Virus record (IMG/VR): IMGVR_UViG_2802429242_000009
Span: 1 to 33,994 of that record
From: a virus
Taxonomy: Duplodnaviria > Heunggongvirae > Uroviricota > Caudoviricetes
DNA length: 33,994 bases
Direction: 5' to 3' (one strand)
Positions within the stretch are counted from its first letter, which is position 1, and the number at the start of each line of letters is the position of its first letter. Made by a program: the position numbers. This document shows positions 15,001 through 18,000 of this stretch, piece after piece.

Positions 15001-18000
15001 TCCGTGCTGATGTTTCTGCTGGTCGTAAGCGCCTGCAAGTCGCCGCCACCTGTGCAAAGTCAACGACCGGAGCCAGCGGCATGGGCGATGGAGAAAGCCC
15101 AGGACTTACAGCAGATGCTGAACTCAATTATTACCGTCTCCGAAGTGGAATCGACAGGATAACCGCACAGGTTAACTACCTGCAGGAGTACATCAGGACG
15201 CAATGCCTTCGATGATAGCGATAATTTTACTCATCATCCTTCACATCTGGCTCTGTAGACAGGGTGGTACTCACTTCTGGAGCGAATCCAGATTAAACAT
15301 CTCATTGCTGATGCTTGAAGTTAAGCATCTGGCGCGCGGTAAGGGGCTGCGTTGAGATAAGAGCCAGTCATAACAAATACCAGGATTTAGCCTCGCATTT
15401 GCGGGGCTTTTTTACATCTGCAGTAAACCGCGCATCGCAGCGCGTAACAATCCCGAGTCTTTCAGAAAGCTGAGCCTGAGAACTGCCGTATATGGTGGCG
15501 ACCATCTCGGGGCGGCTTTTCTGTGCGAACAGGCTCATCTTTCTAAAAGGTAAGACGCTATGAATATCGTTCCACTAAATTACAAAGGCGAACCTATCCG
15601 CTTCAATACTGATGGCTGGATTAATGCCACTGATATTGCAAAACGTTTCGGGAAGCGTCTGGATCACTGGTTGTCCAACGCTGAAACTCTCGAATACGTT
15701 AGAGCTCTGGATGAGGTTTATTCAGGTGAACCATCGAAAATTCTACATACCCGTGATTCCGGGTATGTAAAAACAAGCAAGGCACGAAAGGACAGGGGCG
15801 GCGGAACATGGCTGCATCCAAAGTTATCAGTTGCCTTTGCAAGATGGTGCGATCCGAAATTCTCCGTATGGTGCGACCTGCACATTGATAGTCTGCTTCG
15901 CGGTGAACTGACTGAGCAGCAGAAATATGAGCAAGCATGTCGCATTCGCGATGACCGGAAATCAAAAGCCAGCAATGGGGCAAGAGAGATGGCTCGCTGG
16001 CGATGGGATAAGCCGGTTATTGAAGCAAATGTTGAGTACTGGCGCGAGCAACTGCAGTTGACTCTCGATATCGCGTGCTGATGGCAAACGCAAAACTGCG
16101 TTATCGGAAAAATCAAAGCATTACGAGAACTGAGCAACGGCTATCCATTACAAAGCCCATTTACGGGTGGGCTTGATAATGAAACCGGAATTTATTCTGG
16201 GCCACCAGTTAACGGCAGTACCACGAAACAACCCAAGCCAGTAAGTGGGGAAATAACACCGGCAGCCACTGAAAGATGAACCTCCTGCCTTATGGCAAAA
16301 AAGATTCTTTGTGGTGGCGGACTGATGGAAAGACATCCTAATTTCAGCCAAACATTGAAGGAGTTGTTATGTCAGCAGAAGGTTTCAATAACCCATCAAA
16401 ATTTCGGGATGAGTGGGATAGCAGCGTAAAGAGTAAGTGATGCCATCACAAAAGCCATTCCCTACAGAGTGGCTTTGATAATGGCTTATACCCTGCACGG
16501 GATAACTTAACTGATATCCCCACAAGCGGATAAAGAGGCTCTCAATGTCCGACATCTACATCATCAAACTGAATACGAACGACGGCGGCGAGTAAACGGG
16601 CAAGATGTCACGACGTCAGCCTGAGCTGGTTAATGGCTTTGTGCCGCTGGCGACCTAGACGGGAGTGGGGGGGGGGCGTACTTCGCTCCTGCTGATGTCA
16701 AGTGCGTGTAGTTCACGCCAATATCGGTAGGTGACGATAGAACTGTGGAATAGACATGGCATTATCCTGGACGTGTAAATGTTCAATCGGAAATGCCATG
16801 CTGGTCAGTTGGTTGCTTAGACCTTCTTATAAGAGATAGATCTTCCGAATGGTGGATATATAGAAGTTGAATCTTTAATTTCATAAGTGGCCACTACATT
16901 TCCCGCAGCGTCCAACTCACGGTAAAGGTATTCATCGGTATCCTGACCTTTTCGAGCTCCTTTCCAGTTAGAAGAGACAAGCTCCAGTGTATGGTCATCT
17001 GGAATGCCGATTTTCTGTTTGTATTCATCACTCATGTGAAATCCTTAAAGGTAATTTATGGCACTCACCGACAAACAAGAAATGTTCTGTCGCGAGTACC
17101 TCATCGATTTAAACGCCACGCAAGCGGCTATTCGGGCGGGGTACAGCGCAAAGACAGCTAACCGTACCGCATCCGAAAACCTGTCAAAACCTGACATCAA
17201 GTTAAGAATCGCCGAACTGAAAGCGCAACGCAATGATCTTGTTGGTATTAATGCAGAATATGTACTTAATCGCCTTCTTGAAATCGACCAGATGGATGTG
17301 CTCGACATTCTCCTGCAAAACGGTGAGTTAAAGCCCATTAAAGACTGGCCTAAAGTATGGCGCACAACGCTATCAGGAATGGATGTCGTGGAGATGGTAT
17401 CCGCAGATAGTTCCGCACTTCTGAAGAAAATCAAATGGCCAGATAAGGTCAAAAACCTCGAACTTCTTGGAAAGCATGTTTCCGTTCAGGCATTTAAAGA
17501 ACAAGCTTCTCATGAGCTAACAGGCAAAGACGGCGGCGCAATTCAGATTGAAACATCACCGATGAGCACTCTATTCGGAAAATGACCTCGATTAATCCTA
17601 TCTTTGAATCGTTCATTGAGGCGCATCGCTACAAAGTCGCCAAAGGCGGTCGAGGTAGCGGCAAATCATGGGCAATTGCGAGGCTGCTTGTTGAAGCGGC
17701 GCGTCGGCAGCCTGTGCGTATTCTCTGCGCTCGTGAACTGCAAAACAGTATCAGCGATTCGGTAATCCGGTTGCTTGAAGACACCATCGAGCGGGAAGGG
17801 TATTCGGCTGAGTTTGAAATTCAGCGTTCAATGATTCGTCATCTCGGAACAAATGCTGAGTTCATGTTCTACGGCATCAAAAACAACCCGACGAAGATTA
17901 AATCGCTCGAAGGCATTGATATCTGCTGGGTGGAAGAAGCGGAAGCGGTAACGAAGGAATCATGGGATATCCTGATACCAACCATCCGCAAGCCGTTTTC

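What the first reader, a model, noticed from the sequence alone, without database searches (positions are those of the whole stretch)
16082..16816. 735-bp tract without a convincing gene between the KilA-N gene and the terminase operon, with two related stem-loops
This phage is otherwise tightly packed with overlapping start/stop codons, yet this tract holds only mini-ORFs of 11-31 codons. It contains two related hairpins about 300 bp apart: AAGCCCA-loop-TGGGCTT (16152-16173) and AAAGCCA-loop-TGGCTTT (16451-16476), each followed by GATAATG. It is bounded by the KilA-N gene on one side and a divergent small gene on the other. It could be a decayed gene, a structured RNA, or a binding region for the adjacent KilA-N DNA-binding protein.
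Basis: seen in the sequence. Interest (0 to 1): 0.6.

Follow-up and report, generated by a model that had tools for sequence, protein, structure and literature searches.

The report
Mosaic late-operon spacer with conserved hairpins
The "empty" 735 bp between the KilA-N gene and the terminase genes is a patchwork of two copies of a conserved RNA hairpin found at module joints of many lambda-like phages, a very conserved non-coding block, an overlooked 23-codon gene and a dead small gene; it is interesting to phage specialists but not a new kind of system.

Summary
The tract has no ordinary gene, and the two related stem-loops are real (2 pattern matches, 0 expected by chance). The tract is a mosaic.

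- **Hairpin units, 16145-16182 and 16442-16485.** Each is a two-tier hairpin: lower stem CCAUUA/UAAUGG, a near-invariant CA/GA internal loop, and a 9-10 bp upper stem. In 56 distinct copies from related phages the upper stem is paired in 100% of cells on the sense strand and 86% on the antisense strand. There are compensatory changes, and most type-1 copies end in a UNCG tetraloop. Copies sit right after stop codons of interchangeable accessory genes and coincide with mosaic breakpoints.
- **Non-coding core, 16232-16337.** It is almost invariant and occurs unannotated in 1120 of 5426 complete E. coli genomes. Its match to Rfam Proteo-phage-1 is weak and below threshold.
- **Micro-ORF, 16369-16440.** This unannotated 23-codon ORF has a GGAG ribosome-binding site and is conserved as protein in Escherichia, Salmonella and Proteus phages.
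- **Pseudogene, 16545-16753.** A phrog_6581 remnant with three stops, a frameshift and a G10 run.

Most likely the hairpins are sense-strand RNA processing or stability elements that double as recombination joints. A KilA-N operator is not supported.

The parts
15560..16081 (+). KilA-N domain gene (left boundary). It is one of several interchangeable accessory genes found at this position in related phages.
   Evidence: ORF. Pfam KilA-N E=2.8e-24. Replaced by Rha, hkbK/hkbL, gene 65 or gp73 in relatives.
16145..16182 (+). Hairpin unit 1 (type 1). Lower stem CCAUUA/UAAUGA, CA/GA internal loop, upper stem 16152-16174 capped by a UACG loop.
   Evidence: Fold -17 kcal/mol, z -4.25. Pattern match. 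Homology to P22-like phages, HK544, Sf6, HK620 and HK022 starts exactly here, at 16142-16146. Covariation.
16183..16231 (+). Variable 5' part of conserved segment A. It has many alleles and 1-nt and 58-nt indels among relatives, so it is non-coding.
   Evidence: Variable columns 16198-16228. Sf6 and HK620 carry about 58 extra nt here.
16232..16337 (+). Core of segment A: a nearly invariant non-coding block. It holds a CCCA-AGCCAGUAAG-UGGG hairpin, the tail AACACCGGCAGCC (16255-16267), and a CCAC..AAAGA / UCUUU..GUGG hairpin with an anti-SD-like CCUCC sequence.
   Evidence: Almost no variation in 63 distinct sequences. The few changes include stop-gain, start-loss and a frameshift of the mini-ORFs. 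Present in 1120 of 5426 E. coli genomes, mostly unannotated. Weak Rfam Proteo-phage-1 hit of 19.8 bits against a threshold of 42. Weak thermodynamic signal, z -0.8.
16357..16440 (+). GGAG ribosome-binding site (within 16357-16368) plus a 23-codon micro-ORF at 16369-16440, MSAEGFNNPSKFRDEWDSSVKSK. Probably a real, unannotated small-protein gene.
   Evidence: Homologous 22-28-codon ORFs with a GGAG site occur in other loci, E. coli 30EVA1 and two Proteus phages. Substitutions in the core are biased to third positions, e.g. 1/0/7. The variant between DUF2560 and TerS is in 221 E. coli genomes and never annotated. No Pfam, PHROG or NCBIfam hit.
16442..16485 (+). Hairpin unit 2 (type 2). Lower stem GCCAU/AUGGC, CA/GA internal loop region, upper stem 16451-16476. 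It begins 1 nt after the micro-ORF stop.
   Evidence: Fold -21.1 kcal/mol, z -5.9. Homology blocks of E. coli prophages, Sf6 and phiKp_30 begin at 16441-16445. Covariation.
16486..16544 (+). Conserved leader 'segment C' with a small hairpin (16499-16520) and the ribosome-binding region of the next gene. In Sf6 and HK620 the same leader precedes the DUF2560 gene.
   Evidence: Alignment A2, blastn, fold.
16545..16753 (+). Pseudogene of a phrog_6581-type small gene. TAA replaces Tyr at 16593-16595, TAG is near 16656, a frameshift lies at the G10 run 16667-16676, and another TAG is near 16709.
   Evidence: tblastn with CobraSix gp73: 34/39 and 13/20 identities in two frames. phrog_6581 E=1e-35 for the intact homologue. 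E. coli prophages share the same stops, and the G-run length varies between 5, 6 and 10. An intact 72-aa gene exists in E. coli 30EVA1. 16 E. coli genomes carry the dead version and about 50 carry diverged annotated ones.
16754..16816 (-). 3' flank of the leftward 72-codon gene, with a long-loop inverted repeat CATGGCATT...AATGCCATG.
   Evidence: Read from the sequence. Not tested further.
16817..17035 (-). Real 72-codon gene on the minus strand (right boundary). It is a leftward accessory gene ('moron') in the same position as pid of phage P22.
   Evidence: 89% aa and 78.5% nt identity to Cronobacter phage phiES15, with differences by codon position of 5/4/38. Annotated as hypothetical WP_053903632.1 in E. 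coli. P22 pid comparison and PMC8835761.

Best explanation
The tract is the mosaic spacer that lambda-like phages carry between the lysis/accessory genes and the packaging genes of the late operon. It is transcribed rightward as part of the late mRNA.

The two stem-loops are paralogous copies of a conserved two-tier RNA hairpin. Its parts are a lower stem CCAUUA/UAAUGG, an invariant 2x2 CA/GA internal loop, and an upper stem of 9-10 bp of free sequence.

I infer that the hairpins act in the sense-strand RNA as intercistronic processing or stability elements. They could be an RNase III-type cleavage site or a barrier to 3' exonucleases that ends the upstream accessory-gene message.

Because the hairpins are shared by many phages, they also serve as the homology at which accessory-gene cassettes are swapped, inserted or deleted.

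Between and after the hairpins lie a highly conserved non-coding block (16232-16337) of unknown role, a probably functional 23-codon gene, and a dead phrog_6581 gene.

Shown: the anatomy, conservation, covariation, strand preference, junction positions, pseudogene and micro-ORF coding signature. Inferred: RNA processing or stability as the mechanism.
For: - **Hairpins are real and related.**
- **Covariation.** In 56 distinct homologous units, 94.3% of all pair cells and 100% (504/504) of upper-stem cells form standard pairs. Nine pairs show changes on both sides. 0 of 500 shuffles reach the observed percentage paired, double-change counts or covariation score (4 of 500 reach the count of further pair types), and slid controls give 29-49% paired.
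- **Sense strand.** If read on the other strand, upper-stem pairing falls to 86.3%, because many pairs are G-U.
- **RNA-type apical loop.** 24 of 32 type-1 copies end in a UNCG tetraloop, UACG or UGCG.
- **Several stem versions.** Five sequence versions of the upper stem exist, all with the same CA/GA loop: types 1-4 and a fifth in E. coli 30EVA1. P22 carries a type-3 variant.
- **Not terminators.** The commonest second-position version (HK620 type...CUC-GACAAUGG) has no U-run on either strand, and the terminator scan found nothing at either unit.
- **Position next to genes.** Units start -1 to +12 nt from the stop codon of at least nine unrelated upstream ORF families.
- **Mosaic breakpoints.** Homology blocks begin at 16142-16146 and 16441-16445. 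Hybrids that join a type-1 stem directly to segment C exist.
- **Pseudogene.**
- **Micro-ORF.**
- **Precedent (my own knowledge, not tested here).** T7 early mRNA is cut by RNase III at two-tier intercistronic hairpins. RNase III sites have been reported in the lambda late leader (Daniels et al. 1988).
Against: - No transcript ends, cleavage data or RNA-seq were available, so RNase III or stabiliser action is pure inference.
- In the window's own two copies the antisense-strand folds are as stable as the sense folds (-17.7 and -24.0 kcal/mol). They are followed by UUUGUAAU and UUUUGUGAU, so an antisense terminator role cannot be excluded for types 1 and 2.
- The strict sequence conservation of the lower stem and the CA/GA loop is more than RNase III is known to need. 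It might instead reflect a specific binding protein or simply recombination-driven homogenisation.
- The related sequences are not independent, so the shuffle statistics overstate significance.
- One variant has its loop inverted, which shows that DNA-level palindrome dynamics also occur.
Confidence: 0.45

Rival explanations
1. The hairpins are terminators for leftward (antisense) transcription. They would stop transcripts from minus-strand accessory genes, such as the 72-codon gene here or pid in P22, from running into the lysis genes. They might also be weak bidirectional terminators that insulate accessory genes.
For: - On the minus strand, units 1 and 2 are hairpins followed by UUUGUAAUGG and UUUUGUGAUGG, with A-runs on the other side.
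- The E. coli prophage block carrying the 72-codon gene begins exactly at unit 2, at 16441-16442. That is what a promoter-gene-terminator accessory cassette would look like.
- In Proteus phage Pm34 the micro-ORF is followed by a hairpin that is a perfect minus-strand terminator with seven U.
- P22 pid shows that leftward accessory genes with terminators do occur at this locus (PMC8835761).
Against: - The terminator scan reports neither unit on either strand.
- Upper-stem pairing is 100% on the plus strand but 86% on the minus strand.
- The abundant HK620-type unit has no U-run on either strand.
- Units occur in phages with no annotated leftward gene nearby, such as HK620 and Sf6.
- UNCG loops exist only in the plus-strand reading.
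Confidence: 0.18
2. The hairpin units have no RNA function. They are DNA palindromes kept only because they serve as shared homology or recombination joints ('boundary sequences') for module exchange between lambda-like phages.
For: - Mosaic breakpoints coincide with unit edges.
- Hybrid units and unit-to-unit deletions of segment A exist.
- One variant has an inverted loop and a symmetrised arm, which is typical of DNA palindrome dynamics.
Against: Simple linker homology does not explain these points:
- Five different upper-stem sequences all keep perfect pairing.
- G-U rather than A-C is tolerated.
- The CA/GA mismatch loop is preserved instead of being repaired to a perfect palindrome.
Confidence: 0.15
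3. Unit 1, segment A and unit 2 together form a discrete non-coding RNA that is cut out of the late transcript. It would be a reduced enterobacterial relative of the Rfam Proteo-phage-1 RNA and would act in trans or in cis on translation.
For: - The only Rfam hit in the tract is Proteo-phage-1 at 16232-16267. It shares the tail GAAAUAACACCGGCAGCC.
- The only nhmmer hit of a 47-sequence Proteo-phage-1 profile in the whole window falls at 16255-16271.
- Loop-to-tail pairing is GCCGGU/ACCGGC in true members and GCCAGU/ACUGGC in most enterobacterial copies.
- The 3' ends are similar, GGCGGAC..GGAAAGAC.
- The minimal retained block in E. coli starts exactly at 16232.
- The core is nearly invariant.
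Against: - The score of 19.8 bits is far below the Rfam threshold of 42. E-values are 0.25-1.5.
- Both hairpins that define the Rfam model are absent.
- The window's own copy has C at 16260, which breaks the proposed pairing.
- The folding z-score is only -0.8.
- There is no covariation inside the enterobacterial set, because it hardly varies.
Confidence: 0.12
4. The hairpins are operators, that is DNA binding sites, for the neighbouring KilA-N protein.
For: Two related inverted repeats lie downstream of a DNA-binding-domain gene.
Against: - The same units follow Rha, hkbL-like, Gp49-family, gene-65-like and other ORFs.
- They occur in phages that have no KilA-N gene at this position.
- The variable centre covaries to keep pairing, which a duplex operator does not need.
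Confidence: 0.03

Closest known systems
RNase III processing hairpins between genes of phage T7 early mRNA, and in the lambda late leader and N leader
   Same: Two-tier hairpin (lower stem, small internal loop, upper stem of about 10 bp, about 17-19 bp in all). It sits immediately after coding regions in a long polycistronic phage transcript. It has no U-run.
   Different: Cleavage is untested here. The lower stem and CA/GA loop are sequence-conserved far more than RNase III substrates usually are. Only one or two copies occur per genome, at one locus.
Phage accessory-gene ('moron') boundaries and 'boundary sequences' of lambda-like phages (Juhala et al. 2000 and Clark et al. 2001, recalled from memory; a 'bsq7 boundary sequence' is annotated in the Sf6 record)
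   Same: A short conserved sequence at the joints of interchangeable modules. Accessory genes of many families are swapped next to it.
   Different: The classical accessory-gene cassette ends in an intrinsic terminator, and this hairpin lacks a U-run. The published boundary sequences are not described as covarying hairpins. No record inspected annotates these units.
Rfam RF03044 Proteo-phage-1 RNA
   Same: Shares the 13-nt tail AACACCGGCAGCC and the flanking GAAA. A loop resembling AAGCCGGUAGUG is present as AAGCCAGUAAGUG. Both lie in the late operon of temperate proteobacterial phages.
   Different: Scores 19.8 bits against a gathering score of 42. It lacks both model hairpins. True members lie between the Q-like gene and the holin, not after the lysis genes.
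P22 pid locus (PMC3573128, PMC8835761)
   Same: Same genomic slot, between the post-lysis regulator gene and the packaging genes. P22 carries segment A and a type-3 hairpin unit, then a leftward accessory gene whose promoter lies in a remnant of the same Terminase_2-type small-terminase gene that is intact in this window.
   Different: The leftward gene here encodes an unrelated 72-aa protein. P22 has a canonical terminator after pid, and the window has none detected.
phrog_6581 small phage proteins (for example CobraSix gp73 C-terminal part, E. coli WP_319784760.1)
   Same: 16545-16753 is 87% identical at the protein level over the first 39 codons and sits behind the same ribosome-binding region.
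   Different: The window copy is dead, with three stops and one frameshift. The family has no known function.
REP/BIME elements and integron attC sites
   Same: Imperfect palindromes placed just after stop codons. The outer arms are conserved and the centre is variable but self-complementary. They are associated with gene cassettes.
   Different: The units are not dispersed through the genome (only 2 copies, one locus). They lack a GTAG or GTTRRRY core. No dedicated recombinase or RAYT is linked to them.

Membership tests
Intrinsic (Rho-independent) terminator | Stable G+C-rich stem-loop | tested here: met
   Both units fold at -17 to -24 kcal/mol on either strand.
Intrinsic (Rho-independent) terminator | Run of U immediately after the stem on the transcribed strand | tested here: not met
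   The sense-strand tails are GAUAAUG and GACAAUG. The scan reports no terminator at either unit on either strand. HK620-type units lack U-runs on both strands.
RNase III processing site | About two turns of coaxial helix, often interrupted by a small internal loop, in a transcribed intercistronic region | tested here: met
   6-7 bp + 2x2 loop + 9-10 bp, directly after stop codons on the late-gene strand.
RNase III processing site | Cleavage by RNase III in vivo or in vitro | not testable with these tools
   No RNA-end data were available.
Rfam RF03044 Proteo-phage-1 | Score at or above the curated gathering threshold (42 bits) | tested here: not met
   19.8 bits in the window and 16.8 bits in HK620. 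True members score 76-86 bits.
Rfam RF03044 Proteo-phage-1 | Two adjacent hairpins P1 and P2 upstream of the conserved tail | tested here: not met
   The 54 model positions are replaced by 12 nt. At most a 4-bp remnant, CCCA/UGGG, remains.
Structured RNA motif (generic) | Base pairs kept through compensatory changes in homologues | tested here: met
   For the hairpin units: 9 pairs with double changes, 100% pairing in the upper stem, and 0/500 shuffles reaching the observed pairing, double-change or covariation measures. For core A this is not met, because it varies too little.
KilA-N operator | Co-occurrence of the site with a KilA-N gene | tested here: not met
   Units follow Rha, hkbL-like, Gp49-family, gene-65-like and other ORFs. 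P22, phiKp_30 and E. coli strain 1223 have Rha instead.
phrog_6581 protein-coding gene | Uninterrupted reading frame | tested here: not met
   TAA, TAG, a frameshift at the G10 run, and TAG.
Small-protein gene (micro-ORF 16369-16440) | Ribosome-binding site, start and stop kept, length conserved, and substitutions biased to synonymous or third positions in diverged homologues | tested here: met
   GGAG lies 5-7 nt upstream. Homologues of 22-28 codons occur in E. coli, Salmonella and Proteus phages. Core differences are for example 1/0/7 and 1/0/5 by codon position. Translation itself is not testable here.
Integron attC / REP element | Conserved core sites (GTTRRRY or GTAG), many dispersed copies, linked recombinase | tested here: not met
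   Only two copies, both in this tract. No such core is seen in the consensus. No recombinase is adjacent.

The most novel reading that the evidence does not exclude
Hairpin 1, the invariant 106-nt core and hairpin 2 form a discrete non-coding RNA that is released from the late transcript by cleavage at the two flanking hairpins. It would be a miniaturised enterobacterial relative of the uncharacterised Proteo-phage-1 RNA. It is carried by about a fifth of E. coli genomes. It would act through its exposed anti-Shine-Dalgarno-like CCUCC/UCUUU stretch to control translation of the micro-ORF and the downstream packaging genes. In the window that stretch is predicted to pair with the micro-ORF's ribosome-binding site and first codons at p = 0.65-0.87.
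Probability: 0.12. Interest if true: 0.6.

Novelty: new member of a known kind. Interest (0 to 1): 0.4.

Why it matters
If the hairpins are processing or stability signals, they define how lambda-like phages uncouple the lysis and accessory part of the late mRNA from the packaging part. They would also explain why accessory genes are exchanged so precisely at this hotspot. Examples at this slot are Rha and KilA-N regulators, Gp49-family proteins, nucleases and pid.

The 106-nt core is unannotated in 1120 complete E. coli genomes. The 23-codon gene variant is unannotated in 221. These are cheap targets for RNA-seq and ribosome-profiling re-analysis.

The result also corrects annotations. P22 orf25 overlaps the hairpin unit, Emek orf53 is in a different frame from the micro-ORF, Pm34 gp6 is called in the wrong frame, and the P22-like DUF2560 gene is called with a 5' extension running into segment A. 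The first two are probably spurious calls.

None of this overturns current understanding of phage genome organisation.

Tried and rejected
- **Rfam at curated thresholds.** Only two tRNAs in the window, and nothing in 19 related loci.
- **Promoter scan of 15150-17150.** No sigma-70-like site on either strand, so an internal promoter or an antisense sRNA gene in segment A is unsupported.
- **Minus-strand 67-codon ORF 16148-16351 spanning segment A.** Rejected. It has a TTG start and no family hit. A net 58-nt indel in Sf6 and HK620 (not a multiple of 3) and a 1-nt indel in other relatives destroy the frame.
- **Plus-strand mini-ORFs in segment A (16179, 16276, 16292).** Rejected. Relatives carry stop-gain, start-loss and frameshift variants, and Sf6 and HK620 read M-K-P-stop at the first.
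- **The 16292 ORF as the 'N-terminus of DUF2560'.** Rejected. The Pfam and PHROG domains start at residues 43 and 27 of the P22-like annotation.
- **nhmmer profile of 47 extended Proteo-phage-1 sequences against the window.** Only a 17-nt hit, E=0.25. Homology therefore stays unproven.
- **Genome-collection scan with CCATTACA-N18-32-GATAATGG.** Wasted. The pattern was too loose, and all listed hits were in unrelated taxa, so they are chance matches.
- **The search for homologous proteins.** Refuses queries under 40 aa.
- **Supplement of the paper that defined Proteo-phage-1.** Not held.
- **Literature searches for boundary sequences, DUF2560 or transcriptomes of this region.** Nothing specific apart from the P22 pid papers.
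Full report
**Setting.** The window is a temperate lambda-like phage. A Q-like gene, two tRNA genes (13795-13950) and a holin-lysozyme-Rz cassette (14069-15215) are followed by a strong intrinsic terminator (15389-15408). Next come a KilA-N gene (15560-16081), the tract in question, a minus-strand 72-codon gene (16817-17035), and the small and large terminase and portal genes. All coordinates below agree between ORF listing, get_sequence and my scripts.

**Observation.** Both stem-loops are present at the stated positions and both are followed by GATAATG. 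That GATAATG pairs with a CCATYAC upstream, so each element is a two-tier hairpin: unit 1 at 16145-16182 and unit 2 at 16442-16485. As RNA they fold at -17.0 and -21.1 kcal/mol (z -4.3 and -5.9). The opposite strand folds about as well. A pattern describing the shared flanks matches only these two places in 34 kb, with zero expected. No ORF longer than 45 codons on the plus strand, or 67 on the minus strand, lies in the tract.

**The tract is a mosaic.** blastn against fetched relatives (alignment) gives four blocks.

- **Segment A (16142-16337)** begins exactly at unit 1. It is 91-98% identical in P22-like Salmonella phages, HK544, Klebsiella phage phiKp_30, Sf6, HK620 and HK022. In all of these it is unannotated or only clipped by a doubtful ORF call.
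- **16338-16444** is shared only with HK544-type phages.
- **Segment C (16445-16534)** begins at unit 2. In Sf6, HK620 and phiKp_30 it is the leader of the DUF2560 gene.
- **A block beginning at 16441** is shared with E. coli prophages that carry the same 72-codon gene and the 5' part of the same small-terminase gene. It overlaps segment C.

What lies upstream of unit 1 differs from phage to phage: KilA-N, Rha, hkbK/hkbL, gene 65 or gp73. What lies between segment A and the second unit also differs: nothing, a Gp49-family gene, a 92-codon gene, or the micro-ORF.

**The hairpin family.** A scan of viral contigs for the 3' flank returned 120 loci. Together with the annotated phages they gave 178 units and 56 distinct sequences.

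- All share the lower stem, consensus CCAUUA/UAAUGG. HK620-type copies have GUUAUUG/CAAUGGC, which keeps every pair through G-U and one A-U to G-C double change.
- A 2x2 internal loop, 5'-CA/GA-3', is present in 54 of 56.
- The upper stem of 9-10 bp comes in at least five sequence versions.
- Counting pairs on the alignment (A3) gave 94.3% of cells paired, 9 of 16 pairs with changes on both sides, 0 of 500 shuffles reaching the observed pairing, double-change or covariation values, and 29-49% paired when the partner is slid.
- The upper stem is paired in 504 of 504 cells on the plus strand and in 435 of 504 (86.3%) if read on the minus strand, because many pairs are G-U.
- In 24 of 32 distinct type-1 copies the apical loop is UACG or UGCG, a UNCG tetraloop, which exists only in the plus-strand reading.
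- The sequences are related, so the shuffle numbers are not probabilities. Even so, the pattern of change is what a sense-strand RNA helix predicts.

**Where the units sit.** Where an upstream ORF of at least 30 codons exists, its stop codon ends -1 to +12 nt from the unit. At least nine unrelated ORF families occupy that position. Architectures seen are unit1-A-unit3 (spacing 154-156 or 212-213 nt), unit1-A-micro-ORF-unit2 (257-258 nt, as in this window), unit1-A-gene-unit2 (316-811 nt), and single hybrid units in which a type-1 stem is joined straight to segment C. So recombination between units, or at their edges, deletes and inserts cassettes. One variant has its loop inverted and its arm symmetrised, a DNA-level palindrome event. 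Units occur only at this locus, not elsewhere in the window or in about 7 kb of flank in the loci.

**What the hairpins do.**

- They are not standard terminators. The sense-strand tail is GAUAAUG or GACAAUG, the scan flags neither unit, and the abundant HK620-type unit has no U-run on either strand.
- They are not KilA-N operators. The distribution argues against it, and so does covariation of the centre.
- What remains is a sense-strand RNA element that ends accessory-gene cistrons inside a long polycistronic transcript.
- Its size and shape are those of the RNase III sites between T7 early genes. This, and the reported RNase III sites in the lambda late leader, I cite from memory and did not test.
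- I therefore rank 'processing or stability hairpin that also serves as recombination joint' first, at 0.45.
- The main rival is an antisense or bidirectional terminator. Types 1 and 2 have UUUGU-type tails on the minus strand, and the E. coli block carrying the leftward gene starts exactly at unit 2. In addition, Proteus phage Pm34 has a true minus-strand terminator after its micro-ORF.

**Segment A core.** In 63 distinct sequences the stretch 16232-16337 shows almost only singleton changes. The 30 nt before it are hypervariable, with 1-nt and 58-nt indels.

- The mini-ORFs inside it are not conserved: relatives carry TAT to TAA, loss of the ATG, and an extra A in the A-run.
- The block occurs in 1120 of 5426 complete E. 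coli genomes, nearly always with no annotation. The shortest retained versions start at 16232.
- It is not strongly structured by energy (z -0.8 here, -2.4 for the HK620 copy).
- The only Rfam similarity is a sub-threshold hit to Proteo-phage-1 (19.8 bits, threshold 42), based on the tail GAAAUAACACCGGCAGCC.
- Genuine members (76-86 bits) come from high-G+C (apparently Pseudomonas-type) phage contigs. There they lie between a Q-like gene with its promoter and terminator and the holin gene. They continue about 170 nt beyond the Rfam model to a terminator.
- Several short motifs line up with the window. The loop AAGCCGGUAGUG corresponds to AAGCCAGUAAGUG, with a matching change in the tail (ACCGGC versus ACUGGC in most enterobacterial copies). 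The 3' end reads GGCGGAC..GGAAAGAC in both.
- However, a sequence profile of 47 members gives only E=0.25, and the window's own tail breaks the proposed pair. I treat this as a lead, not a membership.

**The micro-ORF.** ATG 16369 is preceded by GAAGGAG and opens a 23-codon frame, MSAEGFNNPSKFRDEWDSSVKSK, whose stop is 1 nt before unit 2.

- Related frames of 22-28 codons, each with a GGAG site, occur in several places.
- In many viral contigs the frame lies between the DUF2560 gene and the small-terminase gene, 2 nt and 5 nt from its neighbours: MATQGFDNPSKFRDEWDKQAEGK.
- It also occurs in E. coli 30EVA1 and in Proteus phages Pm34 and Brookers: MAAQGFDNPTQFREELDKSIPKE and MAVEGSDNPVKFREELDKSIPKK.
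- In the conserved core, differences fall mainly on third positions. Window against 30EVA1 gives 1/0/7, with 5 synonymous and 2 replacement codons.
- The DUF2560-adjacent variant is in 221 E. coli genomes and is never annotated.
- It has no Pfam, PHROG, NCBIfam or PADLOC match.
- I consider it a real small-protein gene with probability about 0.7. Its function is unknown.

**The pseudogene.** From 16545, behind a ribosome-binding region homologous to that of DUF2560 in other phages, the sequence translates as MSDIYIIKLNTNDGGE*TGKMSRRQPELVNGFVPLAT*. After a frame change at a G10 run (16667-16676) it continues YFAPADVKCV*FTPI.... This matches the C-terminal 72 residues of Enterobacter phage CobraSix gp73 (34/39 and 13/20 identities). 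That protein fits phrog_6581 at E=1e-35. An intact 72-codon gene is annotated in E. coli 30EVA1 at the same position. Sixteen E. coli genomes carry the dead version with the same three stops but G5 or G6 instead of G10. About fifty carry diverged versions, most of them annotated as genes.

**Right boundary and the P22 parallel.** The 72-codon minus-strand gene is real: 89% protein and 78.5% DNA identity to phiES15, with 38 of 47 differences at third positions. Phage P22 has the same layout:

- Rha, then segment A, then a type-3 unit overlapped by the annotated 'orf25'.
- Then a G10 run and a terminator.
- Then the leftward gene pid.
- Then a remnant of the 5' end of the same Terminase_2-type gene that is intact in this window.
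- Then orf80 (DUF2560).

The pid promoter and long 5' leader mapped by Wolput et al. lie in that remnant (PMC8835761). By analogy, the window's leftward gene is probably an accessory gene driven from inside the start of the terminase gene.

**Verdict.** The tract is not mysterious empty DNA. It is a conserved, structured late-operon spacer flanked by swapped cassettes, plus a micro-gene and a pseudogene. The hairpin family and the micro-protein appear undescribed: they are annotated in none of the records inspected and are absent from Rfam, Pfam and PHROGs. They belong to familiar kinds of feature, so I score interest 0.4 and novelty 'new member of a known kind'.

Noticed in passing
window 13795-13950: tRNA-Asn(GTT) and tRNA-Thr(TGT) genes lie between the Q-like gene with its late promoter and terminator and the holin gene.
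   Followed up: no
window 15345-15410: The left joint of the KilA-N cassette reads GCCAGTCAT|AACAAATACC, where Sf6 has GCCAGTTCAT|TACAAAGCC running straight into hairpin unit 1. The window thus seems to keep a degenerate 5' arm of a unit, followed by a canonical terminator (15389-15408). This suggests the terminator plus KilA-N cassette was inserted at a unit edge.
   Followed up: partly
window 16667-16676; L388 (P22) about 1405-1414: A G10 homopolymer lies inside the pseudogene. Close E. coli relatives have G5 or G6 at the same place. P22 also has a G10 run about 60 nt after its hairpin unit, in unrelated sequence. Possible slippage hotspot or sequencing-length uncertainty.
   Followed up: partly
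window 17058-17585; L388 (P22) 1750-1935: The small-terminase gene is chimeric. Homology to E. coli prophages with a different large terminase and portal ends near 17504. P22 keeps a dead 5' remnant of this same gene, which forms the promoter and 5' leader region of pid.
   Followed up: partly
loci L133-L137, L140, L144-L260: Genuine Proteo-phage-1 RNAs sit between a conserved Q-like gene with its promoter and terminator and the holin gene of high-G+C (apparently Pseudomonas-type) phage contigs. Conserved sequence, and a third hairpin that appears by eye to covary (e.g. CCCUGA/UCAGGG against CCCAUG/CAUGGG), extend about 170 nt beyond the 82-nt Rfam model to a terminator. The hairpin-2 loop (GCCGGU) can pair with the tail (ACCGGC) as a pseudoknot.
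   Followed up: partly
L264 (Proteus phage Pm34) 1260-1406; L265 (Emek) 800-961; L388 (P22) 1330-1407; L001 3392-3470: Doubtful annotations. Pm34 gp6 is called in the wrong frame over the micro-ORF. Emek orf53 is in a different frame from the micro-ORF and P22 orf25 overlaps the hairpin unit, so both are probably spurious. The P22-like 'DUF2560' gene is called with a 26-codon N-terminal extension reaching into segment A.
   Followed up: partly
window 16278-16310 with 16358-16386: In the window, the conserved core (GAACCUCCUGC ... GAUUCUUU) is predicted to pair with the micro-ORF's ribosome-binding site, start codon and codons 3-6 (pair probabilities 0.65-0.87). This may be chance. It cannot apply to phages where the micro-ORF is elsewhere.
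   Followed up: partly
viral loci (variant GCCATTATCAAAGCCACTCTGTAGGGAGTGGCTTTGATAATGGC): One hairpin-unit variant has its apical loop reverse-complemented and its 5' arm made perfectly symmetrical. This shows inversion or gene conversion within the palindrome at the DNA level.
   Followed up: no
L267 (phage Huey), L266 (epsilon34), L007 (Sf6): The slot between segment A and the second hairpin unit, or just before unit 1, holds varied accessory genes. Examples are a Gp49-family protein (labelled 'anti-CRISPR' in Huey), a GIY-YIG nuclease, and an HNH nuclease further downstream. It is a hotspot for accessory and possibly anti-defence genes.
   Followed up: no
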